The notes under the pieces were generated by a model that was not told the DNA's origin, did not search any database, and was given only the letters and a program-made list of their open reading frames with translations. Positions 2,634 to 42,300 of a stretch of DNA of 64,000 bases are shown piece by piece. The stretch is from Candidatus Aminicenantes bacterium (lineage in GTDB: Bacteria; Acidobacteriota; Aminicenantia; UBA2199). The translations under genes and the position numbers were made by a program. Location: contig JADFDP010000003.1 in the NCBI GenBank assembly GCA_018262835.1, positions 4,157 to 68,156 on the forward strand, in the 5' to 3' direction. Each line of letters opens with the position of its first letter. Position 1 is the first letter of the stretch.

Positions 2634-2662
2634 GCCCTTACTTTATGACAAATAGGGGGCCG

Positions 2663-4797: not shown

Positions 4798-4813
4798 AGT
4801 TCAACGGCACGGC

Positions 4814-5763: not shown

Positions 5764-5817
5764 GATTTCTACTTTATTGCTTAACACATTTGCCTTGATA
5801 AATAAAGATTTTTACAG

Positions 5818-6022
5818 AAATTCCAAATCCCAAGCACTAAATCACAAACAAGCACCAAACACCAATCACCAAAACGATGAAAAGGTCCTAGGAAGGGCTT
5901 TTGTTTGGGACATTGGAATTTGGAACTTGGAATTTATTTGGAATTTGAGATTTGTGATTTGGAATTTACTTTCTTACTTGTTACGCGTTACGCGTCACGT
6001 GTCGCGTGTCACGATAGTTCGC
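5818..6022. repeat. Heptad-periodic hairpin element A: CA arm, loop, GT arm, plus ACGCGT-type heptad tail
   Basis: CA arm 5818-5875 (AAATTCC AAATCCC AAGCACT AAATCAC AAACAAG CACCAAA CACCAAT CACCAAA). GT arm 5903-5967 (..AATTTGG AACTTGG AATTTAT TTGGAAT TTGAGAT TTGTGAT TTGGAAT). Then ACTTTCTTAC, five heptads GYGTYRC (5978-6012) and GATAGTTCGC. Confidence 0.7.
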
Positions 6023-28345: not shown

Positions 28346-28550
28346 GGTTTCGCCTCCCAAGCGCGCGAAAAAAATCAGCGCCAATGCCGTCTGCCACAAC
28401 AAGCTATTTTTTTTCAACTGGGCCTCCAAGGGTTTGAATGTAGCACGAGGGGCTGGGAAAATCAAGGCGGGTGGATTGCGGCGCAACGGTTGAAGATTTT
28501 AGAAATTGATCCCTGTTTAAGCGTTAAAGAGTCGAAGGATTAATCCGTTT

Positions 28551-29529: not shown

Positions 29530-29872
29530 CGCTGCCCCGCAGTCCGGTGGCGTAGATCTTGCCGCAGGAGGAATAGAGGTAGCCGCGGGTGCGCAGCAGT
29601 AGAAAATTGTTCTCGCGGGCGTAGGCGATGGTTTCCGGGGCGATGTTCTTGCCGCGGACCACGATCAGTCCCAGCAGGTCGGTGACCAGGGCGGTGCGGA
29701 TCACCTGCGGGTAGGTGTAGCCGGTCAAAACCACCATGCCGGGCTTGGTCAGGGCCAGGATGTCGCTGATCATGTCGCTGGCCCCCACCGATTTTACCTC
29801 TTCGTCCAGTTTGCTTTCCCCGGACAGCACTTCGGCGTCCAGCAGGGCAACGATATCGCGGACTTTGATCAT
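29516..29872 (-). CDS. DRTGG domain protein
   Basis: 118 aa. MIKVRDIVALLDAEVLSGE...ASDMISDILA...VVLTGYTYPQVIRTA resembles DRTGG proteins found next to NuoE/NuoF-type hydrogenase genes. Confidence 0.8.
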   Translation of the reverse strand: MIKVRDIVALLDAEVLSGESKLDEEVKSVGASDMISDILALTKPGMVVLTGYTYPQVIRTALVTDLLGLIVVRGKNIAPETIAYARENNFLLLRTRGYLYSSCGKIYATGLRGSDAGK

Positions 29873-29919
29873 GTTGGCAACCCTCGCCGCGGCGCCGGGC
29901 GGCCGGCGCTGCCGCTATT

Positions 29920-30474
29920 TCAGTTTTCCGTGTAAATTTCCTTTTCGTACCAGGTTTCCAGGCGCAGCTTGTGCTTGGCCTCTTCCTGGGCCAGTGCCAG
30001 GAAGGTTTCGCGCATGGTTTCTTCCCCGGCCATGGCCGCCAGGTCGTTGTAGAACTTGAATGAGGCCTTTTCCCGGCGCATGGCCACGATCAGGGCTTCC
30101 TGGTAGTCCATGTCCGGCGTGGGCACGATGTCGACCAGGTAGTCGACGATCTTCAGGTCGGTCACCTGTTTGGCCGAGGGCTTGAAGGTGCTGCCCTTTT
30201 TCACGCGTTGCAGCTTCTCCTTGTGCTGGTTCTCTTCGCCGGCGAATTCTACGAACTGTTCGCGCAGGGACTTGTTCTCCAGCTTGGTCGACCATTCCAG
30301 GTAGAACTGGCGGGCTTCCTCTTCCTTTTCGATGGCGAAATCCAGGACTTCCTGGACGGATTTGAAATTGGCAAGGACCGTCATCGGCTGGTCGCAGCAG
30401 ACCAGCTGCCCCTTGCCTTCGGCTATGACTTTGACTATTTTTCCGCACATGGAGCATTTGTAAAAATCGGTCAT
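29920..30474 (-). CDS. Desulforedoxin-domain / ferritin-like (rubrerythrin-type diiron) fusion protein
   Basis: N-terminus YKCSMCGKIVKVIAEGKGQLVCCDQPM is the Dx CxxC...CC motif. A four-helix region carries E...EENQH...E...EEAKH diiron ligand spacing. Confidence 0.8.
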   Translation of the reverse strand: MTDFYKCSMCGKIVKVIAEGKGQLVCCDQPMTVLANFKSVQEVLDFAIEKEEEARQFYLEWSTKLENKSLREQFVEFAGEENQHKEKLQRVKKGSTFKPSAKQVTDLKIVDYLVDIVPTPDMDYQEALIVAMRREKASFKFYNDLAAMAGEETMRETFLALAQEEAKHKLRLETWYEKEIYTEN

Positions 30475-30503
30475 TGGCACCTCCAAATTTTATTGACGCC
30501 CAG

Positions 30504-30695: not shown

Positions 30696-30722
30696 TTGAC
30701 TTTTCGGCGGTTTTTTTATAAT
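30696..30722 (+). promoter_or_regulatory. Candidate sigma-70 promoter of the formate dehydrogenase operon
   Basis: TTGACT (30696-701) and TATAAT (30717-722), but the spacer is only 15 nt. There is a T-rich upstream tract. Confidence 0.35.
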
Positions 30723-30835
30723 ATGGGCTTTGCTTGCAGCCCCGAATGCGGATGAAGCCCGGGGCCGGGTTTCTTCGAAAGCCGGGAGAGGCGGAAACGC
30801 TCTGTCGGCAATGGTCCGGTTCAAGGAGTATCGAA

Positions 30836-31171
30836 ATGCTGGTCAAAGAGGTCGCCGAAAAGCTGGGTCTGAAAATTCTGGCCTCGGGCCACGATCAGGA
30901 CGTGACGAGCGGATATGTGTCCGACCTGCTGTCCGATGTCATCGCCAACGCCGAGGAAGGCTGCCTGTGGATCACGGTGCAAAGGCACCTGAACATCGTG
31001 GCCGTGGCCCAGCTGAAAAAGCTGGCCGGCATCGTCCTCAGCCGCGGCAGCGAACCCGAAGCCCCCGTGCTGGCCCGGGCCGAGCAGGAGGGCCTGTTCG
31101 TCCTCTCCACCCCGGACGACTCGTTCACTATCGCCGGCAAGCTCTACGCCCTGGTCCGCGCCAAAAAGTAA
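30836..31171 (+). CDS. DRTGG domain protein
   Basis: 111 aa from MLVKEVAEKLGLKILASG (AAGGAG upstream). YVSDLLSDVIANAEEGCLWITVQRHLNIVAVA. Confidence 0.8.
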   Translation: MLVKEVAEKLGLKILASGHDQDVTSGYVSDLLSDVIANAEEGCLWITVQRHLNIVAVAQLKKLAGIVLSRGSEPEAPVLARAEQEGLFVLSTPDDSFTIAGKLYALVRAKK

Positions 31172-31233
31172 TGGATGAATTTCGATCCGGTTTTTCAGCA
31201 ACAACGCGGTTTTATCATAAATAGGAGGCTCGC

Positions 31234-31764
31234 ATGGAAGCCCAAGCGCTCCATATCCCGGATAACGTCCAGTACCAGGAACTTAAAAAATTCATCGAGG
31301 CCAGCCGCGATGTTCCCGGCCCCCTGATCCAGGTCCTGCACCGGGCCCAGAAAATTTTCGGCTACCTGCCCCTGGAGGTCCAGCACTTCGTTGCCCGCGA
31401 GCTTGACCTGCCGCTTTCCAAGGTCTTCGGCGTGGTCACCTTTTACAATTTCTTCCGCATGGATCCCATCGGCGACCACATCGTCAACCTCTGCCTGGGC
31501 ACGGCCTGCCACGTCAAGGGCGCCTCGGACATCATCAAGGTCCTGGAAAAGGAACTGGGCGTCAAGGTGGGCGGCACCACGGCCGACCGCTTCTATACCC
31601 TGTCCACGGCGCGCTGTTTCGGCGCCTGCGGCCTGGCGCCGGTGATGATGCTCGACGAAGAGGTGCACGGCCGGCTCAATCCCCAGAAGACCGTCAAGAT
31701 CCTGCGCGACTTGAAAGCCGAAGCCCAACGCGCTGCGGAAGCCATAAACAAGGAGGAAAAATGA
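31234..31764 (+). CDS. NuoE/HydC-like [2Fe-2S] subunit (module 1)
   Basis: 176 aa. Cluster motif CLGTACHVKG...ARCFGACGLAPV. Confidence 0.9.
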   Translation: MEAQALHIPDNVQYQELKKFIEASRDVPGPLIQVLHRAQKIFGYLPLEVQHFVARELDLPLSKVFGVVTFYNFFRMDPIGDHIVNLCLGTACHVKGASDIIKVLEKELGVKVGGTTADRFYTLSTARCFGACGLAPVMMLDEEVHGRLNPQKTVKILRDLKAEAQRAAEAINKEEK

Positions 31765-32123
31765 AACTCGAGGATCTGAAGAAAATAAGGGAAAAAACGG
31801 AAAAGGACATGCTGCTGCGGGCCGGGAAAACGCGGCTGAAGGTGGTGGTGGGCATGGGCACCAGCGGCATCGCCGCCGGCGCCCGCGAGACCCTGAAGGT
31901 TTTCCTGGACGAGATCGAGAAGCGAGCTTTGAGCGACGTCATCGTCACCCAGGCCGGCGAACGCGGCCTGAGCTCGCACGAGCCGATCGTCACCGTCATG
32001 GAGGAAGGCAAGCCCTCCGTGGTCTACGGCAATGTCACGGGGGAAATGGCCCGCAAGATCGTGGCCGAGCACCTGGTCAACGGCAATCCCGTTTCGGAAT
32101 CCATCATCGAAGTCAAGGAATAA
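31761..32123 (+). CDS. Thioredoxin-like ferredoxin-fold protein lacking all Cys ligands
   Basis: 120 aa with no cysteine. VVVGMGTSGIAAGA and QAGERGLSSHEPIV align to the CxxxxC / CxxxC positions of thioredoxin-like [2Fe-2S] subunits. ATGA overlap with the upstream gene. Confidence 0.75.
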   Translation: MKLEDLKKIREKTEKDMLLRAGKTRLKVVVGMGTSGIAAGARETLKVFLDEIEKRALSDVIVTQAGERGLSSHEPIVTVMEEGKPSVVYGNVTGEMARKIVAEHLVNGNPVSESIIEVKE

Positions 32124-32135
32124 AGCGAGGGCGAA

Positions 32136-35100
32136 ATGAACAAACGGCTGGACGTGCTGATCTGCGGAGGCGGCGCCTGCATCTCCTCCCACAGCCATGA
32201 ACTCAAGAAAAAGCTGATCGAGGAGATAGAGAAAAACGGCCTGAGCGCAGAGATCAACCTGGTGGAAACCGGCTGCATGGGCCCCTGTGAACTGGGGCCG
32301 GTGATGGTCGTCTACCCCGACGGCTCCTTTTACATCCAATTGGATGAAAAAAACGCCGCAGAGATCGTCCAGGAACATTTTCTCAAAGGCCGGCCGGTGC
32401 AAAAGCACCTCTGGCAGGCGCCCGAGGCCCGCAAGATCGTCGAACAGAAAAAACAGATCCCTTTTTTCGAAAAGCAGCTGAAGATCGTGCTGTCCAACTG
32501 CGGCCGCATCGACCCGGAAAACGTCGGCGAATACATCGCCCAGCGCGGCTATGAAGCCCTGGGAACCGCCCTGACCCAGATGACCCCCGAGCAGGTGATC
32601 GACATCATCACCAAGTCGGGCCTGCGCGGCCGTGGCGGCGCCGGGTTTTCCACCGGCATGAAATGGAAGTTCGCCTACGACAGCAAGAGCGACCAGAAAT
32701 ACATCCTCTGCAACGCCGACGAGGGTGACCCCGGTGCCTTCATGGACCGGGCCGTGCTCGAGGGCGACCCGCACGCGGTGCTGGAAGGCATGGCCCTGGC
32801 CGGCTACGCCATCGGCGCCGACAAGGGCTACATCTATGTCCGTGCCGAATACCCGCTGGCCATCGAACGTCTGAACCATGCCATTGCCCAGGCCCGTGAA
32901 ATGGGGCTGCTGGGGAAGAATATCTTCGAGACTTCCTTCCACTTCGACGTCGAGCTGCGCATGGGGGCCGGCGCCTTTGTCTGCGGCGAAGAGACGGCGC
33001 TCATGGCCTCGGTCGAAGGCCTGCGCGGCCAGCCCCGACCCAAGCCGCCCTTCCCGGCGGTCAAGGGGCTGTGGGGCAAGCCCTCGGTGATCAACAACGT
33101 CGAAACCCTGGCCACCATCCGCCACATCCTGCTCAACGGCTGGGAGTGGTTCAGCGCCATCGGCACCGAAAAGAGCAAGGGGACCAAGGTCTTCGCCCTT
33201 TCGGGCAAGGTGACCAACACCGGCCTGGTGGAAGTCCCCATGGGCATCACCCTGGGCGAGCTGGTGTTCGACATCGGCGGCGGCATCCCCGGAGGCAAGG
33301 CCTTCAAGGCCGCCCAGACCGGCGGCCCCTCGGGCGGCTGCATCCCGGCCAAGTATCTGAACAGCCCCCTCGACTATGAATCGCTGAAAGCACTGGGTTC
33401 GATCATGGGCTCCGGCGGCCTGATCGTCCTTGACGAGGACAGCTGCATGGTCAACATGGCCAAGTATTTCCTTGAGTTTTCGCTTGAGGAGTCGTGCGGC
33501 CAATGCGTTCCCTGCCGGGTCGGCTTGAAGCAGATGTACGATCTTCTGGAAAGGATCACCAGCGGCAGCGGCACCATGGCCGACCTGGAAAAGCTTGAAA
33601 GCCTGGCCTACACGGTGCGGGCTACCTCGCTCTGCGGCCTGGGTCAGGCGGCGCCCAACCCGGTCATCTCGACCATCAAATATTTCAAGCACGAATACCT
33701 GGAGCACATCCAGGATAAAAAATGCTCGGCCGGCGTGTGCGCGGCACTGTTCGCGGCGCCCTGCGTCAACGCCTGCCCGGCCGGAGTCGACGCCGCCTCC
33801 TATGTCTCGCACATGGGCGACGGCCGCCTGCGCGAGGCCTATTTCCAGCACATGCAGAACAACCCGTTCCCCATCGTCTGCGGACGGGTCTGCCCGGCTT
33901 TCTGCGAGCGCAAGTGCTCGCGCGGCAAGTACGACCAGGCCGTGGCCATCCGCGAGGTCAAGCGTTTGTTCGCCGACTGGGCCATCGGCGAGGGACTGGG
34001 ATTCGCCCCGCCGCTCCAGACCCACAAGGAAAAAGTGGCGGTGGTGGGCGCCGGGCCGGCCGGGCTGGCCTGCGCTTTTTACCTGACCCGCCTGGGCTAC
34101 CAGCCGGTGGTTTTTGAAGCACTGAAAGTGGCCGGCGGCATGATGAAGGTCGGCATCCCCGATTTCCGCCTGCCCAAGGACAAGCTGCAAGCCGAGATCG
34201 CGGTCATCGAAAAGGCCGGCGTGCAGATCAAACTGAATTCACCCGTGGCCAATATTGATGAATTGACGGAAAAAGGGTTCGCCGCGGTGTTCGTCGGCAG
34301 CGGCGCCCACCAGGCCCAGAAGCTGAATATCGAAGGCAGCAGCCTCAAGGGCGTGATGTCGGGCATCGATTTCCTGCGCGAGGCCAACCTGGGAAAGAAA
34401 ATAAACATCGGCAACGACGTGGTGGTGGTCGGCGGCGGTTCGACCGCCATGGACGCCGCCCGACTGGCCCGCCGCCTGGGGGCCGGCAATGTCCGCCTGG
34501 TGTACCGGCGCACCCGCACCGAGATGCCGGCCCAGCTGGAAGAACTGGTCGGGGCGGAGGAAGAGGGCGTGGAAATGGATTTCCTGGTCAATCCGCTGCA
34601 GATCATCGGCCGCGCCGGCAAAGTCAGCGGCATCCATTGCATCAAGACCGAGCTGGCCGATTTTGACGATTCGGGCCGCCGGCGACCGGTGCCGGTCGGC
34701 GGCAGCGAGTACACCATCCGCGCTAGTTTTATCATCTATTGCCTGGGCCAGAAACTCAGCCTGGGACTGACCGGAGGCACGCTGAACCTTGACAGGCGCG
34801 GCCATATCGCCGTGGATCCGCGTACCATGGCCACCAGCGCCGCGGGGGTTTTCGCCGGCGGCGACGCCGTCAACCCTTCCACCGTGATCGAAAGCGTGGC
34901 GCAAGGGCGCCTGGCGGCCGTGAGCATCGACCGCTATTTCGGCCGCGCCGGCCGGCTCTTTGACCAGCCGCGCCAGGTGGTCGACGTCCACTACGACGAA
35001 GAGGCCTACCTGAAGACCATCGAGCGCAAGGAGCCCCACCTCGAGGATGCCGAGAAGCGCGTCGCCGATCTGGCTTTGGAGGTCAGCCGCGGGCTGACCC

Positions 35101-35210
35101 TGGACGAGGCCGTGGAAGAAGCGCGGCGCTGCCTGCACTGCGACCGCAACCAGGCCCCGGAAAAGGAAAAGACAGCCGGCGAAACGGTGGCCATCGAGGC
35201 CATGCTGTGA
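32136..35210 (+). CDS. NuoF/HydB-like flavoprotein fused to GltD/NfnB-like NAD(P)H-FAD oxidoreductase
   Basis: 1024 aa. N-terminal [2Fe-2S] (ICGGGACIS..ETGCMGPCELGP). FMN/NADH site GLRGRGGAGFSTGMKW. N3 cluster ESCGQCVPCR. Then CSAGVC..CVNACP and CGRVCPAFCERKC. Two Rossmann motifs: VAVVGAGPAGLACA and VVVVGGGSTAMDAA. Confidence 0.9.
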   Translation: MNKRLDVLICGGGACISSHSHELKKKLIEEIEKNGLSAEINLVETGCMGPCELGPVMVVYPDGSFYIQLDEKNAAEIVQEHFLKGRPVQKHLWQAPEARKIVEQKKQIPFFEKQLKIVLSNCGRIDPENVGEYIAQRGYEALGTALTQMTPEQVIDIITKSGLRGRGGAGFSTGMKWKFAYDSKSDQKYILCNADEGDPGAFMDRAVLEGDPHAVLEGMALAGYAIGADKGYIYVRAEYPLAIERLNHAIAQAREMGLLGKNIFETSFHFDVELRMGAGAFVCGEETALMASVEGLRGQPRPKPPFPAVKGLWGKPSVINNVETLATIRHILLNGWEWFSAIGTEKSKGTKVFALSGKVTNTGLVEVPMGITLGELVFDIGGGIPGGKAFKAAQTGGPSGGCIPAKYLNSPLDYESLKALGSIMGSGGLIVLDEDSCMVNMAKYFLEFSLEESCGQCVPCRVGLKQMYDLLERITSGSGTMADLEKLESLAYTVRATSLCGLGQAAPNPVISTIKYFKHEYLEHIQDKKCSAGVCAALFAAPCVNACPAGVDAASYVSHMGDGRLREAYFQHMQNNPFPIVCGRVCPAFCERKCSRGKYDQAVAIREVKRLFADWAIGEGLGFAPPLQTHKEKVAVVGAGPAGLACAFYLTRLGYQPVVFEALKVAGGMMKVGIPDFRLPKDKLQAEIAVIEKAGVQIKLNSPVANIDELTEKGFAAVFVGSGAHQAQKLNIEGSSLKGVMSGIDFLREANLGKKINIGNDVVVVGGGSTAMDAARLARRLGAGNVRLVYRRTRTEMPAQLEELVGAEEEGVEMDFLVNPLQIIGRAGKVSGIHCIKTELADFDDSGRRRPVPVGGSEYTIRASFIIYCLGQKLSLGLTGGTLNLDRRGHIAVDPRTMATSAAGVFAGGDAVNPSTVIESVAQGRLAAVSIDRYFGRAGRLFDQPRQVVDVHYDEEAYLKTIERKEPHLEDAEKRVADLALEVSRGLTLDEAVEEARRCLHCDRNQAPEKEKTAGETVAIEAML

Positions 35211-35217
35211 GGAAGCC

Positions 35218-35676
35218 ATGAAGCGCGAAAAAATATTGCAGAACTACAAGCCCTCGGGCGACAACCTGCTGGGCATCCTGCACGACATCCAGAACGCCAG
35301 CGAAGAGCATTACCTGACCGACGCCGACCTGCGGGCCGTGGCCGATTACCTTGGCCTGGCCTACAGTTTCGTGTACGGCGTGGCCACCTTCTATACCATG
35401 TACAGCCTTGAGCCGCGGGGCAGGTACCTCATCCGTGTCTGCCAGTCCCCGCCCTGCCACCTGCTGGGCTCGACCACCATTTCCAGGGAGCTGATGCGGC
35501 TGCTGGGGATCGGTTTCGGCGAGACCACCGCCGACAGGCGCTTCACCCTGGAAATGTCGTCCTGTCTGGGCGTGTGCGGCGTCGCCCCGGCCATGATGGT
35601 CAACGACCAGGTTTACGGCAACCTGACCCCCGAGCTCATCGCGGAAGTCATCGCGGGGTTGCGGAGGGGAAAATGA
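35218..35676 (+). CDS. NuoE/FdsG-like [2Fe-2S] subunit (module 2)
   Basis: 152 aa. CQSPPCHLLG...SSCLGVCGVAPA. Confidence 0.9.
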   Translation: MKREKILQNYKPSGDNLLGILHDIQNASEEHYLTDADLRAVADYLGLAYSFVYGVATFYTMYSLEPRGRYLIRVCQSPPCHLLGSTTISRELMRLLGIGFGETTADRRFTLEMSSCLGVCGVAPAMMVNDQVYGNLTPELIAEVIAGLRRGK

Positions 35677-37271
35677 GCATTTACCGCACGCACATCCTGC
35701 TGCCGGTCGATGAGGGAACCGTCCAGGCCGGGGTCTTCGAGGTCAAGCGCCGGCTGGAGAGTGAATTGCAAGCGAGAAAACTTCAAAAGGAAATAAAGGT
35801 CCTGGAAAGCGGCAGCGTCGGTCTGGTCGGCAAAGGCGTCATCCTGGCCGTCTATCCCGACCGCATGTACTATTTTGGAGTCAAGGAAAACGACATTCCC
35901 CGCATCATCGAAGAGCATTTGCTCAAAGGGCGGATCGTCGCCGGCCTGGCCCATGCCCCGGTGGCGGCCATGGCCGCGGACCAGACCGGCGCCCGCGTCG
36001 GGCTGACCCGCGAGCAGCGGCGCGTGGTCCTGGACAAGGCCTGGACCGTGGACCCGAAAAACATTCACGAAGTCCTGGCCGCCGGCGGCTACCGGGCCCT
36101 GGAAAAAATATTCAGCGACAAGCTCAGCCCGGAACAGGTGATCGAGGAAGTGAAGAGATCGGGGCTGCGCGGCCGCGGCGGCGCCGGATTCCCGACCGGC
36201 ATGAAGTGGGAGTTCACGCGCAAGGCGGGGGGCCCGGAGAAATACGTCATCTGCAACGCCGATGAAGGCGAACCCGGCACCTTCAAGGACCGGCTGATCC
36301 TCGAGGGCGACCCGCACAAGCTGATCGAGGCCATGACCATCGCCGCCTACGCCATCGGCGCCGGTCGCGGTTTCATCTACATCCGCGGCGAATACGGCCT
36401 GTCCATCGAACGCGTGCAAAAGGCCATCGACCAGGCCCGGGAGTTCAGTCTGCTGGGCAAAAACATCCTGGAAACGGGCTTTTCCTTCGAGCTGGAGATC
36501 AAGAAGGGGGCCGGCGCCTATGTCTGCGGCGAGGAAACGGCGCTGATCGAATCGCTGGAAGGCAAGCGCGGCAACCCGCGCGTCAAGCCGCCCTACCCGG
36601 TCACGCACGGCTTATGGCAGAAGCCCACGGCAGTCAACAACGTCGAAACCCTGGCCAATATCCCGGCCATCATCAACAACGGCGCCGGCTGGTTCCGCAA
36701 GATCGGCACCGACAAGTGCCCGGGGACCAAGGTCTTCACCATCCTCGGCCATGTCGAATATCCGGGGCTGATCGAGACCGACATGGGCACGCCCCTGCGC
36801 GAGATCATCTTTTCTTTCGGCGGCGGCATCAAGGGCGGCAAAAAATTCAAGGCCGCTTTGCTCGGCGGCGCTGCCGGGGTGTTCCTGTCCGAGCCCCTGC
36901 TGGATGTGAAGATGGATTTCGAGAACCTGAAGGAAAACAAGGCGGTGCTGGGTTCCGGGGCCGTGCTGGTCATGAACGAGGACACCTCGATCGTGGACAT
37001 GCTCTTTTCCATCGCCAAGTTCTTCGCCCACGAGTCGTGCGGCCAGTGCTCGCCCTGCCGCATCGGCACGCAGCAGATACTCCAGATCATCTACCGCCTG
37101 CGCCAGGGCGGCGGCAAGGCGGGCGACCTGGAAACGCTGCTGCAGCTGGCCGAGACCATGTTCAGGTCGTCGCTCTGCCCCCTGGGCCAGTCGCTGGTCA
37201 TGCCGGTCAAGAGCGCCCTGGAGAATTTTAAAGACGAATTCGCGTTGGCCATCAGCCAAGCTGAGAAATAA
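35673..37271 (+). CDS. NuoF/FdsB-like NADH-binding flavoprotein (module 2)
   Basis: 532 aa from MSIYRTHILL (ATGA overlap). GLRGRGGAGFPTGMKW and ESCGQCSPCR. The N-terminal thioredoxin-like fold lacks Cys ligands (ESGSVGLVGKG). No C-terminal ferredoxin extension. Confidence 0.9.
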   Translation: MSIYRTHILLPVDEGTVQAGVFEVKRRLESELQARKLQKEIKVLESGSVGLVGKGVILAVYPDRMYYFGVKENDIPRIIEEHLLKGRIVAGLAHAPVAAMAADQTGARVGLTREQRRVVLDKAWTVDPKNIHEVLAAGGYRALEKIFSDKLSPEQVIEEVKRSGLRGRGGAGFPTGMKWEFTRKAGGPEKYVICNADEGEPGTFKDRLILEGDPHKLIEAMTIAAYAIGAGRGFIYIRGEYGLSIERVQKAIDQAREFSLLGKNILETGFSFELEIKKGAGAYVCGEETALIESLEGKRGNPRVKPPYPVTHGLWQKPTAVNNVETLANIPAIINNGAGWFRKIGTDKCPGTKVFTILGHVEYPGLIETDMGTPLREIIFSFGGGIKGGKKFKAALLGGAAGVFLSEPLLDVKMDFENLKENKAVLGSGAVLVMNEDTSIVDMLFSIAKFFAHESCGQCSPCRIGTQQILQIIYRLRQGGGKAGDLETLLQLAETMFRSSLCPLGQSLVMPVKSALENFKDEFALAISQAEK

Positions 37272-37285
37272 CAAAGGAGGCATGC

Positions 37286-40009
37286 ATGTCGGAAATGGTA
37301 ACCATCAGTATTGACGGCAAGGAGATCCGGGCGGCCAAGGGAGACAACCTGTTGCGAGTGGCCCGGGACAACGGCTTCGACATTCCCGGGCTGTGCTTTT
37401 ATGAAAAAATAACCCCCACCGGCGACTGCCGGCTGTGCATGGTCAAAATAGAAGGCCGGCCCGGCATGGTCGCCTCCTGCCTGGTCAAGGTCGATGCGGG
37501 GATGAAGGTGACCGCTTTCGATCCACAGCTGGAGGAAACCCGCAAAATGCTGGCCGACGTGCTCCTCTCCGAGCACAACGACGACTGCATCACCTGCGAG
37601 CGCGACGGCGACTGCGGCATCCAGGACCTGGCCTTCCGCTACGGCCTGGACACGCCCAAGCGCACTTTTGCCCCGGTCTGGAAGGAGATCCCCCAGGCTC
37701 CGGACAGCTCGGCGCCGGTGTTGTTCTATGATTCCAGCAAGTGCATCAAGTGCGAGCGCTGCGTCAAGGCCTGCACCGAGATCCAGGGCAAGGGCGTCTT
37801 AAGCATGGCCCAGCGCGGCATCCACAGCCACGTCGTGGCCGGCACCGGCCAGTGGTCGGGCTCGGAGTGCGACGGCTGCGGCGAGTGCGTGCAGGCCTGC
37901 CCGGTCGGCGCCCTGATGGAAAAGCCCGTCTACGGCCAGAAGCTGAAGAAAAAGGACGTGCAGAGAAAGGTGGTCACCACCTGTCCTTACTGCGGCGTCG
38001 GCTGCCAGATGGAGCTCTGGGTCAAGGATGACAAGATCGTCAAGGTCAAAGGCGCCGACTCGGTGCCCAACTACGGCTCCACCTGCGTCAAGGGACGGTT
38101 CGGCCTGGATTTCGTCCAGCGTCCCGACCGCCTGACCAGGCCGCTAATACGCAAGGAGGGCAAGCTGGTTGAATCTTCCTGGGACGAAGCGCTGGAGCTG
38201 GTGGCCAGCAAACTCGGCGCCATCAAGAAGGAACACGGGCCGGCCGCCCTGGCCGGGCTGTCGTCGGCCAAGTGCACCAATGAGGAGAACTTCGTCTTTC
38301 AGAAGTTCGTGCGCACCGCTTTCGGCTCCAACAACGTCGACCATTGCGCCCGTTTGTGCCACGCCTCCACCGTGGCCGGTCTGGCCCGCTCCTTCGGCTC
38401 CGGCGCCATGACCAACTCCATCGAGGAGCTGGAGCATGCCGAAGTCATCCTGGTCACGGGCTCCAACACCACCGAGACCCACCCGGTCATCGCCACGCGC
38501 ATCAAGAAAGCCGTGCTTTTCCACGGCGCCAGGCTGATCGTCATCGACCCGCGCCGGATCGACCTGGTCAAATACACCGAACGATACGGCGGCATGTGGC
38601 TGCGCCAGAAGAACGGCAGCGACGTGGCCTGGGCCAACGGCCTGATGAACGTCATCATCGAGGAAAAACTGCTCGCCGATGAGTTCGTCAAGACGCGCAC
38701 CGAGGACTTTGAGGCCATGAAGAAAGTCGTGTCCGGTTACACCCCGGACAAGGTGGAAAAGATCACCGGCATACCCGCCGAGCAGCTGCGCCGGGCCGCG
38801 CGCATGTACGCCGGCGCCGCCAAGGGCTCGATCGTCTACTCCATGGGCATCACCCAGCACACCACCGGCACCGACAACGTCATGTCCATGGCCAACCTGG
38901 CCATGCTCACCGGCAACCTGGGCAAGGAGTCGGCGGGCGTCAACCCGCTGCGCGGCCAGAACAACGTTCAAGGGTCGTGCGACATGGGCGCCCTGCCCAA
39001 TGTTTTTCCCGGTTACCAGGCCGTGACCGACGCGCCCGCCCGCGAAAAATTCGAAAAGGCCTGGAACGTCAAGCTCGACGACAAGGTCGGCCTGACCATC
39101 GTCGAGATCATGCACCAGGCTGCCGAGGGCAAGATCAAGGGGCTGTACATCATGGGCGAGAACCCCATGGTCTCCGACCCCGACCTCGGCCATGTCAAGC
39201 AGGCGCTGGAAAAGCTGGATTTCCTGGTGGTGCAGGACATCTTCCTGACCGAAACGGCGCAACTGGCCGACGTGGTGCTGCCGGTGGCCTCGTTCGCCGA
39301 GAAGCAGGGGACCTTCACCAACACCGAGCGCCGCAGCCTCTGGGTGGAGAAGGCCGTTCCCGCCCCCGGCGAAGCCCGCATCGACTGGGAGATCATCCGC
39401 GACGTGAGCACGCGCATGGGCTACAAGATGGAATACGGCAGCGTGGAAGACATCATTAACGAGGTCAACAAGCTGGTGCCGCAGTATGCCGGCATCACCT
39501 ATAAACGCCTTATGAACGGCGACAAGCTGCAGTGGCCCTGCCCCAACCCCGAGCACCCGGGGACGAAATTCCTGCACCGCGACAAGTTCACCCGCGGCCT
39601 GGGCAAGTTCTTCGCCATCGATTATATCCCGCCCGCGGAGTGGCCCGACGCCAAGTACCCCTTTCTGCTCTCCACCGGCCGCCTGCTCTACCATTACCAC
39701 ACCGGCAGCATGAGCCGGCGCACCGCGGCCCTGCCCCAGTACGTGCCCGGGCCGTTCATGGAGATGCATCCCCAGGACATGAAAAAATTGGGCATCACCA
39801 GCGGCGAGCAGGTCAAGGTCTCATCGCGGCGCGGCTCGATCCAGACCGAGGCGCGGGAGAGCGAGCGGGTCGATGTGGGCTCGGTCTTCATCACCTTCCA
39901 TTTCGCCGAGGCGGCGGCCAACATGCTGACCAACGACGCCTTCGACCCCATCGCCAAGATCCCCGAGTTCAAGGTGGCTGCCTGCCAGATAGAAAAAATC
40001 AACCAATAA
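37286..40009 (+). CDS. fdhA: Formate dehydrogenase catalytic subunit, NuoG-like Fe-S N-terminus plus molybdopterin domain (Cys-type)
   Basis: 907 aa. [2Fe-2S] CFYEK..CRLCMV..SC; H-ligated cluster HNDDCITCERDGDC; two 4Fe-4S motifs; CPYCGVGC. Active-site stretch VDHCARLCHASTVAGL has TGC (38357-38359) where Sec enzymes have TGA. Confidence 0.93.
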   Translation: MSEMVTISIDGKEIRAAKGDNLLRVARDNGFDIPGLCFYEKITPTGDCRLCMVKIEGRPGMVASCLVKVDAGMKVTAFDPQLEETRKMLADVLLSEHNDDCITCERDGDCGIQDLAFRYGLDTPKRTFAPVWKEIPQAPDSSAPVLFYDSSKCIKCERCVKACTEIQGKGVLSMAQRGIHSHVVAGTGQWSGSECDGCGECVQACPVGALMEKPVYGQKLKKKDVQRKVVTTCPYCGVGCQMELWVKDDKIVKVKGADSVPNYGSTCVKGRFGLDFVQRPDRLTRPLIRKEGKLVESSWDEALELVASKLGAIKKEHGPAALAGLSSAKCTNEENFVFQKFVRTAFGSNNVDHCARLCHASTVAGLARSFGSGAMTNSIEELEHAEVILVTGSNTTETHPVIATRIKKAVLFHGARLIVIDPRRIDLVKYTERYGGMWLRQKNGSDVAWANGLMNVIIEEKLLADEFVKTRTEDFEAMKKVVSGYTPDKVEKITGIPAEQLRRAARMYAGAAKGSIVYSMGITQHTTGTDNVMSMANLAMLTGNLGKESAGVNPLRGQNNVQGSCDMGALPNVFPGYQAVTDAPAREKFEKAWNVKLDDKVGLTIVEIMHQAAEGKIKGLYIMGENPMVSDPDLGHVKQALEKLDFLVVQDIFLTETAQLADVVLPVASFAEKQGTFTNTERRSLWVEKAVPAPGEARIDWEIIRDVSTRMGYKMEYGSVEDIINEVNKLVPQYAGITYKRLMNGDKLQWPCPNPEHPGTKFLHRDKFTRGLGKFFAIDYIPPAEWPDAKYPFLLSTGRLLYHYHTGSMSRRTAALPQYVPGPFMEMHPQDMKKLGITSGEQVKVSSRRGSIQTEARESERVDVGSVFITFHFAEAAANMLTNDAFDPIAKIPEFKVAACQIEKINQ

Positions 40010-40022
40010 AAGAGGAGGAACA

Positions 40023-40880
40023 ATGGAGTATGATTGCAAGGGCCCGGCCGTGGTGGCCGCGGACCTCAACGAGAACATCTGTGTAAAGAAAACCACGAAC
40101 AACTGGTTCAAACTGTTGGTGCTGGGCATCCTGGCCGGCGCTTACATCGGCTTCGGCGGCGAGCTTTCGAACATGGTCGGTCATGATGCGGCGACCTTCG
40201 TCGGAGCAGGCCTGGCCGCCTTCATCAAGGGCGCGGTCTTTTCCGTCGGCCTGATGCTGGTGGTCATCGCCGGGGCGGAGTTGTTCACCGGCAATACCAT
40301 GATCACCATGTCGGTGCTGGACGGCAAGGCCAAGTTCAGCGGCTTGCTGTACAACTGGTCGATCGTCTATGTTGCCAACTTTATCGGCTCCATGCTGATG
40401 GTTTATGTCATGTTCGGCAGCGGCCTGCTCGCCGGCCCCAACGTGGCCGTGGGTGCCTCCGCCCTGAAAACGGCCGCCGCCAAAGCGAGCCTTGATTTCG
40501 GGCCGGCTTTCTTCCGCGGCATCCTCTGCAACTGGCTGGTCTGCCTGGCGGTGTGGATGGCATTGACCTCGCGCAACACCATCGGCAAGGTCTGGGCCAT
40601 CTTCTTCCCGATCATGGCCTTCATCGCCTCGGGTTTCGAGCACAGCGTCGCCAACATGTATATCATCCCCATCGGCATCATGCTCAAGGGCGTGAACGAG
40701 GTCGTGGCGGCCGCCACCGCCGCCGGCCTCACACCGGAGAAGCTGGCCAATGTCAGCTGGTACGGCTTTGCGGTCAAGAACCTGATACCGGTCACCCTGG
40801 GCAACATCGTGGGCGGCGGCTTTTTCGTCGCCACGCTGTACTGGCTGGCCTACGTCCGCAAGTCCAAGAAGGCCGCCTAG
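40023..40880 (+). CDS. focA: Formate/nitrite transporter family channel
   Basis: 285 aa. FNT signatures GAELFTGN and FEHSVANMY. Confidence 0.9.
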   Translation: MEYDCKGPAVVAADLNENICVKKTTNNWFKLLVLGILAGAYIGFGGELSNMVGHDAATFVGAGLAAFIKGAVFSVGLMLVVIAGAELFTGNTMITMSVLDGKAKFSGLLYNWSIVYVANFIGSMLMVYVMFGSGLLAGPNVAVGASALKTAAAKASLDFGPAFFRGILCNWLVCLAVWMALTSRNTIGKVWAIFFPIMAFIASGFEHSVANMYIIPIGIMLKGVNEVVAAATAAGLTPEKLANVSWYGFAVKNLIPVTLGNIVGGGFFVATLYWLAYVRKSKKAA

Positions 40881-40909
40881 GTCACTTCAACGTTATCTTG
40901 ATTTATCCG

Positions 40910-40942
40910 GGGCCGTTCCCGCCGGGGACGGCCCTTTTTTTT
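40910..40942 (+). terminator. Rho-independent terminator of the formate dehydrogenase operon
   Basis: GGGCCGTTCCC-GCC-GGGGACGGCCC stem (11 bp, one G-U) followed by T8. Confidence 0.8.

Positions 40943-41001: not shown

Positions 41002-42300
<1,299 letters not shown>

What the first reader, a model, noticed from the sequence alone, without database searches (positions are those of the whole stretch)
30836..40942. One operon encodes two complete NuoE/NuoF flavin modules, a GltD-type NADPH module, a formate dehydrogenase and FocA
Gene order: DRTGG, NuoE-1, Cys-less thioredoxin-like protein, NuoF-1::GltD fusion, NuoE-2, NuoF-2, FdhA (NuoG-type N-terminus plus Mo-bisPGD, Cys ligand), FocA, then a strong terminator. 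Gaps are 0-62 nt and there are two ATGA overlaps. NuoE-2/NuoF-2/FdhA alone correspond to the FdsG/FdsB/FdsA layout of soluble NAD-dependent formate dehydrogenases. The extra NuoE-1/NuoF-1::GltD set resembles the HydBC-plus-NfnB logic of Stn/Nfn-type transhydrogenases. Joining both in one transcription unit suggests a formate-oxidising or CO2-reducing complex that talks to both NAD(H) and NADP(H), possibly by flavin-based electron bifurcation or confurcation. Alternatively it is an FDH co-expressed with a dedicated transhydrogenase. I do not know of a characterised enzyme with this subunit set.
Basis: partly seen in the sequence, partly recalled or inferred. Interest (0 to 1): 0.7.

Follow-up and report, generated by a model that had tools for sequence, protein, structure and literature searches.

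The report
Formate dehydrogenase with dual NAD(P)H modules
An operon from an uncultured Aminicenantes-type bacterium encodes a formate dehydrogenase wired to two different flavin modules, one of which carries an NADPH-binding domain where its relatives have a ferredoxin-binding tail; the design is conserved but uncharacterised and may link formate, NADH and NADPH without ferredoxin.

Summary
Eight co-directional, tightly packed genes (30836-40880) encode DRTGG, NuoE-1, a Cys-less thioredoxin-like protein, NuoF-1::GltD, NuoE-2, NuoF-2, a Cys-type FdhA and FocA, followed by a strong terminator.

The two flavin modules are co-conserved in at least 25 species-level genomes, in Aminicenantes and Spirochaetes MAGs, together with a divergent upstream trio of regulator and rubrerythrin genes.

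The interpretation needs revision. NuoF-1 is a bifurcating-type (Bfu/HydB-like) subunit. Its C-terminal ferredoxin-binding 2x[4Fe-4S] domain has been replaced, right after the last ligand of the B2 site, by a Stn-type, circularly permuted GltD (FAD/NADPH) module. Near-identical NuoF cores elsewhere carry the ferredoxin arm instead. NuoF-2 is a non-bifurcating-type subunit that lacks the B2 to B5 sites.

The five-gene cassette E1-D-F1-E2-F2 recurs with a ferredoxin arm, a GltD arm or no arm, and with either FdhA or [FeFe]-HydA as the catalytic head. Module 1 is therefore not an add-on transhydrogenase.

Best reading: a ferredoxin-independent CO2/formate enzyme coupled to both NAD(H) and NADP(H). 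True con/bifurcation is possible but unproven. I found no characterised example and no published description. I rate it a new variant of a known kind.

The parts
28582..29529 (-). CBS-domain / histidine-kinase-like ATPase protein (315 aa). It is a putative regulator, divergently transcribed and conserved together with the operon.
   Evidence: Pfam CBS 1.8e-31 and HATPase_c_2 1.5e-10. Found at the same relative position in Aminicenantes loci (81-95% id) and Spirochaetes loci (59-70% id).
29516..29872 (-). Second DRTGG-domain protein (118 aa), overlapping the CBS-HATPase gene.
   Evidence: Pfam DRTGG 7e-7. Co-conserved with the operon across phyla.
29920..30486 (-). Rubrerythrin with an N-terminal desulforedoxin-like domain (188 aa), probably a peroxide/oxygen-defence protein.
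   Evidence: Pfam Desulfoferrod_N 4e-15 and Rubrerythrin 4e-14. Conserved next to the operon in Aminicenantes (80-92% id) and Spirochaetes (60-75% id).
30696..30724 (+). Sigma-70-like promoter match (TTGACT-17-TAATAT) about 110 nt upstream of the first gene.
   Evidence: Consensus scan. This is a pattern match only. The number of such sites in the region is not above the shuffled expectation.
30836..31171 (+). DRTGG-domain protein (111 aa from ATG 30836, with AAGGAG 8 nt upstream). First gene of the operon, function unknown, possibly regulatory.
   Evidence: Pfam DRTGG 2e-9. Sequence read. Conserved at 56-88% id in related loci.
31234..31764 (+). NuoE-1 (BfuC/HydC-like, 176 aa). [2Fe-2S] 'C1' ligands are C87, C92, C128, C132.
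   Evidence: Pfam 2Fe-2S_thioredx 1e-46. Best PDB hits are HydC 8a6t_C (144 bits) and NfnC 9n5u_C (143 bits). Cys positions.
31761..32123 (+). 'D' subunit: a 120-aa, Cys-free, free-standing copy of the N-terminal thioredoxin-like domain of BfuB. It has no cofactor ligands.
   Evidence: No Pfam hit. PDB hits are the N-terminal ~90 residues of NfnB 9n5u_B (3.8e-13), 9bov_B and StnB 8oh5_B. 73-80% identical in cassette variants with other arms or heads, and 52% identical in Thermanaeromonas toyohensis.
32136..33740 (+). NuoF-1 part of the fusion (aa 1-535), a bifurcating-type BfuB core.
- B5 [2Fe-2S] ligands: C10, C15, C47, C51.
- FMN/NAD(H) motifs are present.
- B1 [4Fe-4S] ligands: C454, C457, C460, C500.
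- B2 (or Zn) site: C437, T475, H524, C530, C535.
   Evidence: 793 bits to A. mobile HydB 7t2r_B over aa 4-539. The residue-by-residue alignment shows all five B2 ligands. Criteria are from PMC9304861. Cys map. The pattern is conserved in all F1-type homologues.
33741..35210 (+). GltD/NfnB-type part of the fusion (aa 536-1024).
- Two [4Fe-4S] clusters: C543, C547, C582, C586, C590, C594, plus the C-terminal C999 and C1002.
- FAD Rossmann motif VAVVGAGPAGL.
- NADPH site VVVVGGGSTAMD ... VYRRT.
It occupies the position of the ferredoxin-binding B3/B4 domain.
   Evidence: Pfam Fer4_20 2e-21 and Pyr_redox_2 2e-27. Best PDB matches are the GltD inserts of NfnA 9bov_A (375 bits), 9n5u_A (365) and StnC 8oh5_C (312), then NfnB 4ylf_B (305). 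The C-terminal RCLHC aligns to the N-terminal RCLQC of NfnB, which indicates a circular permutation (weak support). Junction comparison with ferredoxin-arm homologues.
35218..35676 (+). NuoE-2 (152 aa). [2Fe-2S] ligands are C75, C80, C116, C120.
   Evidence: Pfam 2Fe-2S_thioredx 6.5e-47. 38.5% identical to NuoE-1. 62-66% identical to the E2 subunits of other tandem cassettes and of a single-set hydrogenase.
35673..37271 (+). NuoF-2 (532 aa), a non-bifurcating-type NuoF.
- FMN/NAD(H) motifs and B1 ligands (C456, C459, C462, C502) are intact.
- The N-terminal thioredoxin-like domain has no Cys.
- The B2 ligands are replaced by S/R/A, and the protein ends before the last two.
- There is no C-terminal Fe-S domain.
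   Evidence: Alignment to 7t2r_B (557 bits). Feature table for all homologues. ATGA overlap and GGAGG ribosome-binding site. Criteria from PMC7311640 and PMC9304861.
37286..40009 (+). FdhA (907 aa), the catalytic subunit.
- NuoG/HydA-type N-terminus: one [2Fe-2S], one His/Cys3 [4Fe-4S] and two [4Fe-4S].
- Mo/W-bisPGD domain with its own [4Fe-4S].
- Active-site Cys358-His359.
   Evidence: TIGR01591 877 bits, above its cut-off of 666. Full-length match to NAD-dependent FDH alpha subunits 9wxb_B (771 bits) and 6tg9_A (759 bits), with CARLCHAS aligned to CARVCHSP. Cys map.
38354..38412 (+). SECIS_3-like hairpin that starts one codon before the Cys358 codon (TGC, 38357-38359). It is either a relic of a selenocysteine ancestor or an echo of conserved coding sequence.
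   Evidence: Rfam RF01989, 37.9 bits (gathering score 63), E 1e-5 to 3.5e-7. The inner stem is intact and the outer stem is broken. Single-set relatives have TGA at this codon.
40023..40880 (+). FocA-type formate channel (285 aa).
   Evidence: Pfam Form_Nir_trans 2.5e-81. TIGR00790 252 bits, above its cut-off of 232. The FocA equivalog scores 232, below its cut-off of 290.
40909..40942 (+). Intrinsic terminator (12-bp stem, 9 G-C pairs, 3-nt loop, T8) that closes the operon.
   Evidence: The next gene (enolase, 41017-42300) has its own promoter-like site and is syntenic only within Aminicenantes.

Best explanation
The operon encodes one modular, cytoplasmic, ferredoxin-independent CO2/formate oxidoreductase of the HydABC/Bfu lineage.

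Components:
- The head is FdhA, carrying Mo- or W-bisPGD with a Cys ligand. Its NuoG-like Fe-S wire connects to NuoF-type flavoproteins.
- The five-gene diaphorase cassette E1-D-F1::GltD-E2-F2 supplies two different entry/exit modules.
- Module 1 is NuoE-1 + D + NuoF-1::GltD. It is a bifurcating-type BfuBC core (FMN, B1, C1, B2, B5). The domain that normally hands low-potential electrons to ferredoxin has been replaced by a GltD unit (2x[4Fe-4S]-FAD-NADPH). This core therefore has three ports: NAD(H) at FMN, NADP(H) at FAD, and formate/CO2 via FdhA.
- Module 2 is NuoE-2 + NuoF-2, a plain non-bifurcating NADH:Fe-S module.

Proposed net chemistry: 2 formate + NAD+ + NADP+ <-> 2 CO2 + NADH + NADPH. 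Module 2 adds an NADH-only route. FocA moves formate across the membrane.

In a fermentative Aminicenantes bacterium the likely physiological direction is CO2 reduction. NADPH would take the role that reduced ferredoxin has in confurcating hydrogenases and formate dehydrogenases.

Shown here: gene content, cofactor ligands, the arm replacement, and co-conservation.
Inferred, not shown: that both modules serve the same FdhA (in one hetero-oligomer or as alternative assemblies), the nucleotide specificities, the direction of the reaction, and any obligatory 1:1 coupling (true con/bifurcation).
For: 1. Tight operon with two ATGA overlaps, one promoter-like site and one terminator.
2. All cofactor ligands are intact in all six redox subunits.
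3. F1 carries the complete B1/B2/B5 signature that PMC9304861 uses for bifurcating BfuB. F2 lacks it.
4. The GltD module starts 8 residues after the last B2 ligand, exactly where ferredoxin-arm homologues start their CxxCxxCxxxCP domain.
5. NuoF cores that are 88% (L029 vs L041) and 80% (L031 vs L059) identical carry GltD versus ferredoxin arms. The NJ tree interleaves the two arm types. The arms therefore look interchangeable.
6. The same E1-D-F1-E2-F2 cassette occurs in four other combinations:
- ferredoxin arm + FdhA-FocA-FdhD (L081);
- ferredoxin arm + HydA (L078);
- no arm + HydA (L080);
- GltD arm + HydA (L005, L017, L025).
7. F1::GltD with a head but without E2F2 also exists: L021, L027, L029 and L031 with FdhA, and T. 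toyohensis with HydA. In every locus examined where the gene after the cassette could be identified, it is a NuoG-type catalytic head (L012 was unresolved).
8. At least 25 species-level genomes keep F1::GltD together with E2 and F2. 21 of them have FdhA downstream.
9. The F1 and F2 trees agree on the major clades.
10. The whole island, including the upstream trio, is shared between Aminicenantes and Spirochaetes at 59-82% identity, while the downstream enolase is shared only within Aminicenantes.
11. The GltD part keeps the FAD motif and the GGGxxAxD...YRR NADPH motif shared with NADPH-dependent NfnA, StnC and NfnB.
12. Thermodynamics, my own estimate from the potentials tabulated in PMC9304861: at micromolar formate the CO2/formate couple lies near -300 mV. 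That is between NADH (about -280 mV) and NADPH (about -380 mV), which is where a mid-potential substrate of a Bfu core should sit.
Against: - No biochemical, expression or structural data exist for any member. All tandem-cassette loci come from uncultured organisms.
- A single FdhA N-terminal domain is expected to dock one NuoF. How two different NuoEF modules share one head is unknown.
- E2-F2 + head (L082) and E1-(D)-F1::GltD + head (L076, L021) each exist alone. The operon could therefore simply make two isoenzymes.
- Formate to NAD+ and formate to NADP+ are both downhill at standard concentrations, so energetic coupling is not required.
- The B2 site is Zn in some solved Bfu enzymes. Its presence therefore does not prove bifurcation.
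- Nucleotide specificities are inferred from motifs only.
- The NJ tree has no support values.
- The locus set is biased toward close relatives of the query.
Confidence: 0.5

Rival explanations
1. Two isoenzymes from one transcript. FdhA assembles either with NuoE-2/NuoF-2 (a simple NAD+-dependent FDH) or with NuoE-1/D/NuoF-1::GltD (an NAD(P)-linked FDH). The two particles do not exchange electrons.
For: Both module types occur alone with a catalytic head elsewhere. E2F2-type + HydA occurs in L082. F1::GltD + FdhA or HydA occurs in L021, L027, L029, L031 and L076. One NuoG-like domain normally docks one NuoF.
Against: The strict tandem order E1-D-F1-E2-F2-head is kept across phyla, arms and heads. 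The F1/F2 phylogenies are congruent. Both observations suggest a fixed stoichiometric unit rather than two optional partners. Known HydABC-type enzymes are dimers or tetramers of protomers, so mixed oligomers would form anyway (established knowledge, not tested here).
Confidence: 0.25
2. NuoE-2/NuoF-2/FdhA is an ordinary NAD-dependent FDH. NuoE-1/D/NuoF-1::GltD is a separate, head-less NADH:NADP+ transhydrogenase that is merely co-expressed.
For: Module 1 has both an NAD(H)-type FMN site and an NADPH-type FAD site linked by Fe-S clusters. A Stn-like cluster next to a Mo-FDH was noted, with 'unclear' significance, in Dehalobacteriia (PMC10327494).
Against: In every locus where the gene after the F1::GltD cassette could be identified, it is a NuoG-type head. 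Single-set versions pair F1::GltD directly with FdhA or HydA. Sister cassettes carry a ferredoxin arm or no arm in place of GltD (L078, L081, L080). Those cannot be NAD/NADP transhydrogenases, yet they keep the same tandem layout. An uncoupled NADPH-to-NAD+ transhydrogenase would dissipate the NADPH/NADH disequilibrium.
Confidence: 0.12
3. The GltD arm does not serve NADP(H) exchange with formate. It reduces some other acceptor instead (for example polysulfide or metal ions, as reported for SudA/SfrB-type GltD homologues), or it is a redox-sensing or regulatory appendage.
For: GltD-family modules occur in enzymes with varied partners. The Stn paper lists SudA and SfrB as homologues.
Against: Those homologues still use NADPH at the same site. 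The NADPH and FAD motifs are intact, and the closest relatives are the NADPH-oxidising inserts of NfnA and StnC. No extra acceptor-specific domain or gene is present in the operon.
Confidence: 0.05

Closest known systems
Stn / NfnABC (Nfn-Bfu) electron-bifurcating transhydrogenases (Sporomusa ovata StnABC, PDB 8OH5; C. saccharolyticus NfnABC, 9BOV; T. sibiricus, 9N5U)
   Same: - A NuoE-like plus NuoF-like BfuBC core with FMN, B1, C1 and the B2/Zn site.
- A GltD-type 2x[4Fe-4S]/FAD/NADPH unit of the same, circularly permuted subtype. These are the best PDB matches of the GltD part.
- A formate-dehydrogenase-like large subunit in the same gene cluster.
   Different: - In Stn/NfnABC the GltD unit is inserted in the NuoG/FDH-like subunit and feeds the mid-potential path.
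- There the FDH-like domain is catalytically dead and the NuoF subunit keeps its ferredoxin-binding B3/B4 domain.
- Here GltD replaces the B3/B4 domain of NuoF, FdhA has an intact active site, and there is no ferredoxin arm.
- A second NuoEF pair and a D subunit are also present.
Fdh-Bfu enzymes: electron-bifurcating formate dehydrogenases (G. acidurici HylABC-FdhF2, characterised; Type 1 Fdh-Bfu, predicted in PMC9304861)
   Same: FdhA with a NuoG-type N-terminus next to NuoE and a bifurcating-type NuoF. The Nitrospirota and Thermodesulfovibrionales relatives of NuoF-1 (47-58% id) sit in exactly such NuoE-NuoF(ferredoxin arm)-FdhA clusters.
   Different: The low-potential partner (ferredoxin) is replaced by a built-in NADPH module. 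An extra non-bifurcating NuoEF pair is present. The active site has Cys where those relatives have Sec.
FdsABG(D)-type soluble NAD+-dependent formate dehydrogenases (R. capsulatus 6TGA, C. necator 6VW7)
   Same: FdhA matches FdsA over its full length (759 bits) with the same Cys-His active site. NuoE-2/NuoF-2/FdhA repeats the gamma-beta-alpha layout. NuoF-2 has only FMN and one [4Fe-4S], like FdsB.
   Different: NuoF-2 and NuoE-2 score higher against HydB/HydC-type subunits than against FdsB/FdsG (557 vs 376 bits; 123 vs 95 bits). No FdsD or FdsC genes are in the operon. A second, larger diaphorase module is present.
Non-bifurcating NADH-dependent [FeFe]-hydrogenases (S. wolfei Hyd1ABC, S. aciditrophicus HydAB)
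   Same: NuoF-2 shows the diagnostic loss of the N-terminal [2Fe-2S] and the C-terminal 2x[4Fe-4S] sites described for their beta subunits (PMC7311640). A 67%-identical NuoF-2 homologue forms a three-gene NuoE-NuoF-HydA cluster (L082).
   Different: Here the head is a formate dehydrogenase, and the module is always preceded by a bifurcating-type module in the same operon.
NfnAB (NfnSL) transhydrogenase
   Same: The GltD part is homologous to NfnB/NfnL (305 bits to 4YLF_B), with the same cluster, FAD and NADPH motifs.
   Different: There is no NfnA (PyrK-like) partner. The GltD unit is permuted and fused to NuoF. In the closest relatives (StnC) the FAD is reported not to bifurcate.

Membership tests
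Bfu family (BfuABC; Schut et al. 2022, PMC9304861) | BfuB with an FMN/NAD(H) site and the B1 [4Fe-4S] cluster | tested here: met
   Both NuoF-1 and NuoF-2 keep the RGRGGAGF, CNADEG(D/E)PG and CGEETAL motifs and the four B1 Cys.
Bfu family (BfuABC; Schut et al. 2022, PMC9304861) | B2 site (Cys, Cys/Thr, His, Cys, Cys spanning the B1 motif). The His is absent from non-bifurcating homologues. | tested here: met
   NuoF-1 has C437/T475/H524/C530/C535, aligned to C438/C476/H525/C531/C536 of 7T2R_B. NuoF-2 has S/R/A and then ends, so it does not meet the feature.
Bfu family (BfuABC; Schut et al. 2022, PMC9304861) | C-terminal B3/B4 2x[4Fe-4S] ferredoxin-interacting domain on BfuB | tested here: not met
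   Neither NuoF has it. In NuoF-1 the GltD module begins at that position. Ferredoxin-arm homologues show CxxCxxCxxxCP twice there. The window enzyme is therefore not a canonical Bfu member, although NuoF-1 clearly derives from one.
Bfu family (BfuABC; Schut et al. 2022, PMC9304861) | N-terminal B5 [2Fe-2S] (or Zn) domain on BfuB, and BfuC with the C1 [2Fe-2S] cluster | tested here: met
   NuoF-1 has C10/C15/C47/C51. NuoE-1 has 4 Cys. NuoF-2's N-terminal domain has none.
Bfu family (BfuABC; Schut et al. 2022, PMC9304861) | Electron-bifurcating activity with NAD(H), ferredoxin and a third substrate | not testable with these tools
   This needs enzyme assays.
Stn / NfnABC transhydrogenase | GltD unit inserted in the NuoG/FDH-like large subunit (StnC/NfnA), whose FDH-like domain is inactive | tested here: not met
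   GltD is fused to NuoF-1, not to FdhA. FdhA passes the FDH-alpha equivalog cut-off and keeps Cys358-His359. The Stn architecture is described.
Stn / NfnABC transhydrogenase | StnB/NfnB keeps the two C-terminal [4Fe-4S] clusters for ferredoxin | tested here: not met
Stn / NfnABC transhydrogenase | GltD unit of the permuted Stn subtype, with FAD and NADPH motifs | tested here: met
   Best PDB hits are 9BOV_A, 9N5U_A and 8OH5_C. The alignment runs to the terminal RCL(H/E)C motif. YRR and GxGxxG motifs are present. Fer4_20 profile positions 7-32 match the C-terminus weakly (E 8e-4).
FdsABG(D) NAD-dependent formate dehydrogenase | FdsA-type alpha subunit with a NuoG-like N-terminus, Mo-bisPGD and a Cys ligand | tested here: met
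   771 and 759 bits over the full length to 9WXB_B and 6TG9_A. CH motif aligned.
FdsABG(D) NAD-dependent formate dehydrogenase | Beta and gamma subunits orthologous to FdsB and FdsG | tested here: inconclusive
   The cofactor content is the same, but NuoF-2 and NuoE-2 score higher against HydB/HydC-type chains.
FdsABG(D) NAD-dependent formate dehydrogenase | Accessory FdsD / FdsC (FdhD-like) genes in the operon | tested here: not met
   No such genes lie between 28.5 and 42.3 kb. The related locus L081 has FdhD after FocA.
Non-bifurcating NuoF-type beta subunits (Losey et al. 2020, PMC7311640) | Lacks the N-terminal [2Fe-2S] and the C-terminal 2x[4Fe-4S] sites; keeps FMN and one [4Fe-4S] | tested here: met
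   Met by NuoF-2 and by all 30+ F2-type homologues examined.
NfnAB (NfnSL) | NfnA/NfnS (PyrK-like FAD/[2Fe-2S]) partner subunit | tested here: not met
   No such gene in the operon or its flanks.

The most novel reading that the evidence does not exclude
The NuoE-1/NuoF-1::GltD core is a genuine Bfu-type flavobicluster whose low-potential outlet has been hard-wired to NADP(H) in place of ferredoxin.

On this reading the enzyme, and its hydrogenase sisters, perform a ferredoxin-free, three-way con/bifurcation: 2 formate (or 2 H2) + NAD+ + NADP+ <-> 2 CO2 (or 4 H+) + NADH + NADPH. This would poise formate/H2 at the mean potential of the NADH and NADPH pools.

The second, non-bifurcating NuoEF module would sit in the same particle as a bypass or gate.
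Probability: 0.3. Interest if true: 0.8.

Novelty: new variant of a known kind. Interest (0 to 1): 0.62.

Why it matters
1. The mechanism and the low-potential branch of Bfu/HydABC-type enzymes are actively debated. A natural variant whose ferredoxin port is replaced by a covalently attached NADPH module would give an all-pyridine-nucleotide system that can be followed optically. It could test whether the [B1-FMN-C1] site really gates two outlets.

2. The tandem arrangement of a bifurcating-type and a non-bifurcating-type NuoEF pair in one operon is widespread in uncultured anaerobes: Aminicenantes, Spirochaetes, WOR-3/Hydrothermia and Cloacimonadota. It occurs with both FDH and [FeFe]-hydrogenase heads. 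I found no description of it, so current rules that classify an enzyme as 'bifurcating' or 'non-bifurcating' from one NuoF subunit would misread these loci.

3. For the ecology of Aminicenantes and similar fermenters, it suggests that formate and H2 release can be driven from NADH plus NADPH without ferredoxin. This changes predicted electron budgets in syntrophic communities.

4. NAD(P)H-linked, Cys-type (selenium-free) CO2 reductases are of biotechnological interest.

Tried and rejected
- NuoF-2 as an FdsB orthologue: rejected. PDB scores favour HydB-type chains.
- Membership in Stn/NfnABC: rejected on architecture.
- C530/C535 as the first two Cys of the GltD cluster motif, which would have left the B2 site incomplete: rejected. 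These residues sit in the HydB-like DKKCxxxVC motif, and the missing CxxC of GltD is supplied by C999/C1002 at the permuted C-terminus.
- Moco or other riboswitch in the 350-nt leader, or anywhere in 28-42 kb: none found. Only a sub-threshold SECIS_3 hit and a chance CRISPR-DR29 hit (E 0.28) at an intergenic hairpin.
- Repeats in the leader: only short two-copy matches, not followed further.
- Wood-Ljungdahl, fdhD or moco genes next to the operon, to infer direction: none. Enolase and an MFS transporter lie downstream.
- Literature searches for a NuoF::GltD or HydB::GltD fusion, or for tandem NuoEF sets: none found. The nearest remark is a Stn-like cluster beside a Mo-FDH in Dehalobacteriia with 'unclear' significance. 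The library is open-access only, so absence is not proof.
- Cluster names for NuoF-2 homologues, looked up in the hope of finding a cultured host: all are MAGs.
- Structure prediction: not run. The tool returns no coordinates and no multimers, so it could not answer the docking or distance questions.

Full report
**1. Observation**

- A DRTGG protein.
- NuoE-1, with four Cys.
- A 120-aa Cys-free protein.
- A 1024-aa NuoF::GltD fusion with Complex1_51K, SLBB, NADH_4Fe-4S, Fer4_20 and Pyr_redox_2 domains.
- NuoE-2.
- NuoF-2. Its real start is ATG 35673, overlapping the NuoE-2 stop as ATGA.
- A 907-aa FdhA. TIGR01591 scores 877 bits against a cut-off of 666.
- A formate/nitrite-family channel.

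Spacers are +62, -4, +12, +7, -4, +14 and +13 nt. A 12-bp G+C-rich hairpin with a T8 tail follows at 40909-40942. A sigma-70-like promoter match lies at 30696-30724.

**2. Origin and conservation**

A scan of one genome per species found the fusion protein at 85-94% identity in many Candidatus Aminicenantes / Acidobacteriota MAGs. The window is therefore Aminicenantes-like.

I ran tblastn with all window proteins against the 75 loci.
- 25 loci keep F1::GltD followed by NuoE-2 and NuoF-2.
- 21 of those have FdhA next, and many also have FocA.
- Nine or more loci labelled Spirochaetes/Treponemataceae carry the same order at 56-83% identity.

The divergently transcribed upstream trio is co-conserved in both groups. 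It comprises a rubrerythrin with a desulforedoxin-like N-terminus, a second DRTGG protein and a CBS-HATPase protein (28582-30486, minus strand). The downstream enolase is syntenic only within Aminicenantes. The whole island thus behaves as one heritable, laterally mobile unit.

**3. The two NuoF subunits are different kinds**

Both score best against HydB-type subunits of bifurcating enzymes. Against 7T2R_B, NuoF-1 scores 793 bits and NuoF-2 scores 557 bits. Against FdsB both score only about 376-394 bits.

NuoF-1:
- The alignment with A. mobile HydB shows every ligand of the B2 site that Schut et al. use to define bifurcating BfuB: C437, T475, H524, C530, C535.
- It also has a four-Cys N-terminal domain (B5) and the B1 cluster ligands.

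NuoF-2:
- It keeps only the FMN/NAD(H) motifs and the B1 ligands.
- Its N-terminal thioredoxin-like domain has no Cys.
- The B2 positions are S, R and A, and the protein ends five residues later.
- This is the signature of the non-bifurcating beta subunits described by Losey et al..

The dichotomy holds for all ~95 NuoF homologues extracted from the related loci. In a neighbour-joining tree the F2-type forms a deep separate clade. That tree has no support values.

**4. What the GltD fusion replaces**

In F1-type proteins the sequence is conserved through ...F(R/K)xEYxxHIxxK(R/K)CxxxVC. After that point the proteins diverge.
- Ferredoxin-arm homologues continue with two CxxCxxCxxxCP motifs, the B3/B4 domain that binds ferredoxin.
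- The window protein continues after 7 residues with the GltD cluster domain.

The GltD part matches the GltD inserts of NfnA and StnC best (375, 365 and 312 bits), ahead of NfnB (305 bits). Like those inserts, it is circularly permuted. The RCLxC motif that opens NfnB lies at the C-terminus here, as C999 and C1002 (with weak support).

That leaves eight Cys for two [4Fe-4S] clusters, in addition to the complete B1, B2 and B5 sets. The FAD motif and the NADPH-type GGGxxAxD...YRR motif are intact.

NuoF cores that are 88% (L029 vs L041) and 80% (L031 vs L059) identical carry GltD versus ferredoxin arms. The tree interleaves the two arm types. The arm has therefore been exchanged more than once between close relatives. 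I read this as functional interchangeability of NADP(H) and ferredoxin at this port.

**5. The tandem NuoEF cassette is a general architecture**

I looked at the contexts of NuoF-2 homologues with 65-68% identity. They show the same E1-D-F1-E2-F2 cassette in several combinations.
- Ferredoxin arm + [FeFe]-HydA: L078, an abundant Aminicenantes type.
- Ferredoxin arm + FdhA-FocA-FdhD: L081.
- No arm + HydA: L080, from WOR-3/Hydrothermia.
- GltD-arm cassettes 86-93% identical to the window's, followed by [FeFe]-HydA rather than FdhA: L005, and likewise L017 and L025.

Each module also occurs alone with a head.
- F1::GltD + FdhA: L021, L027, L029, L031.
- DRTGG-NuoE-HATPase-D-F1::GltD + HydA in the cultured Thermanaeromonas toyohensis.
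- E2F2-type + HydA: L082.

The D subunit is 73-80% identical across the tandem cassette variants and 52% in T. toyohensis, and it always precedes F1.

The system is therefore combinatorial: head (FdhA or HydA) x F1 arm (ferredoxin, GltD or none) x presence or absence of E2F2.

**6. Mechanism (inference)**

In Bfu enzymes the [B1-FMN-C1] flavobicluster exchanges electrons with three partners.
- NAD(H) at the FMN.
- The third substrate, through the NuoG-like wire of subunit A.
- Ferredoxin, through the C-terminal domains of BfuB and BfuC.

In the window enzyme the third route leads to GltD-FAD-NADP(H). I therefore propose 2 formate + NAD+ + NADP+ <-> 2 CO2 + NADH + NADPH on module 1. Module 2 would be a plain NADH route into the same FdhA population.

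I used the physiological potentials tabulated by Schut et al. (NADH about -280 mV, NADPH about -380 mV, formate -420 mV standard) and about 30 mV per decade for a two-electron couple. On that basis formate at around 10 µM sits near -300 mV, between the two nucleotides. This is my own estimate.
- That is the position expected for the mid-potential substrate.
- It would allow a fermenter to dump NADH electrons as formate with NADPH as the driving partner, with FocA exporting the product.

Aminicenantes have been inferred to be fermenters with formate/H2 end products.

Both NuoF copies keep the CGEETAL motif. From memory, the first Glu of that motif disfavours NADPH in E. coli NuoF. I did not check this here. 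If it holds, the FMN sites are probably NAD(H)-specific.

Not shown here: whether coupling is obligatory (true con/bifurcation), how two NuoEF modules share one head, and the direction of the reaction in vivo.

**7. Rivals**

- Two isoenzymes sharing FdhA. This is plausible because each module works alone elsewhere.
- A head-less transhydrogenase plus an ordinary FDH. This is disfavoured. In every locus where the gene after the cassette could be identified, it is a catalytic head. Cassettes with a ferredoxin arm or no arm keep the same layout.
- Another acceptor for the GltD arm. This is unlikely given the motifs.

**8. Comparison with known systems and novelty**

The enzyme derives from the Bfu/HydABC lineage but fails the defining B3/B4 feature. 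It shares the GltD subtype with Stn/NfnABC but not their wiring. Its E2/F2/FdhA half works like FdsGBA but is not clearly orthologous to it.

Eight full-text searches and several papers read found no description of a NuoF::GltD fusion or of tandem bifurcating-type plus non-bifurcating-type NuoEF sets. The closest remark is an unexplained Stn-like cluster beside an FDH in Dehalobacteriia. The library covers open-access papers only.

I rate this a new variant of a known kind, with interest 0.62.

**9. Caveats**

- All evidence is sequence-based.
- MAG taxonomic labels are inconsistent. Contigs labelled Chrysiogenales or Patescibacteria are 91-92% identical to Aminicenantes ones.
- The locus sample is biased to relatives of the query.
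- The tree is a neighbour-joining tree without bootstrap.
- The B2 site can be Zn rather than Fe-S.
- The promoter call is a pattern match.

Noticed in passing
window 38354-38412 (+), inside fdhA: A sub-threshold SECIS_3 match (37.9 bits, gathering score 63) starts one codon before the active-site Cys codon TGC (38357-38359). The inner stem is intact and the outer stem is broken. It may be a relic of a Sec-to-Cys conversion, or only conserved coding sequence.
   Followed up: partly
related loci L001-L083, active-site codon of FdhA: All FdhA genes that follow a tandem E1-D-F1-E2-F2 cassette have Cys (TGC/TGT). All single-set relatives (L021, L027, L029, L031 and the Nitrospirota NuoE-NuoF-FdhA clusters) have in-frame TGA (Sec). 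The correlation is unexplained.
   Followed up: partly
window 28582-30486 (-): A divergent trio (desulforedoxin-rubrerythrin fusion, DRTGG protein, CBS-HATPase protein) travels with the operon across phyla. It probably provides oxidative-stress protection plus an unknown regulatory circuit. No HydS-like sensor is present here, unlike in T. toyohensis.
   Followed up: partly
L005:15169-16977, L017:15146-16966, L025:14898-16766: The same GltD-arm tandem cassette (86-93% identical in L005) is followed by an [FeFe]-hydrogenase HydA in place of FdhA. This predicts an NAD(H)/NADP(H)-linked, ferredoxin-independent hydrogenase.
   Followed up: partly
L041, L053, L055, L072, L073 (Nitrospirota): Two NuoE-NuoF(ferredoxin arm)-FdhA(Sec) clusters lie in tandem about 6 kb apart on the same contig. 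In L053, L055, L072 and L073 the upstream copy's NuoF matches the window core at ~52% identity and the downstream copy's at ~63-65%; in L041 both match at ~64-65%.
   Followed up: no
L078:15498-19593: In the Aminicenantes hydrogenase locus a Rex-like repressor gene and a second, canonical HydC-HydB-HydA set follow the tandem-cassette hydrogenase and the HydF maturase.
   Followed up: no
L080:6869-8533: In a WOR-3/Hydrothermia genome the F1-type NuoF (554 aa) keeps the B1, B2 and B5 ligands but has no arm at all after the B2 site. This is a third state of the swappable position.
   Followed up: no
window 176-2473 (-): HypF carbamoyltransferase, a [NiFe]-hydrogenase maturation protein. The genome therefore probably also encodes a [NiFe] hydrogenase.
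   Followed up: no
window ~2000-6000: G+C falls from about 0.63 to 0.42-0.50 around an AAA_14/DUF4143 ATPase gene (2645-4021). This may be a foreign insertion.
   Followed up: no
window 26384-28486 (-), 15088-16593 (+), 43879-45456 (+): Large ORFs with high third-position G+C (700, 501 and 525 aa) have no Pfam match at the thresholds used, 1e-5 to 1e-6.
   Followed up: no
L001, L002, L007, L013 record titles: Contigs 87-92% identical to the Aminicenantes operon are labelled Chrysiogenales, Patescibacteria or 'uncultured Clostridia'. These are probably mis-binned or mislabelled MAGs.
   Followed up: no
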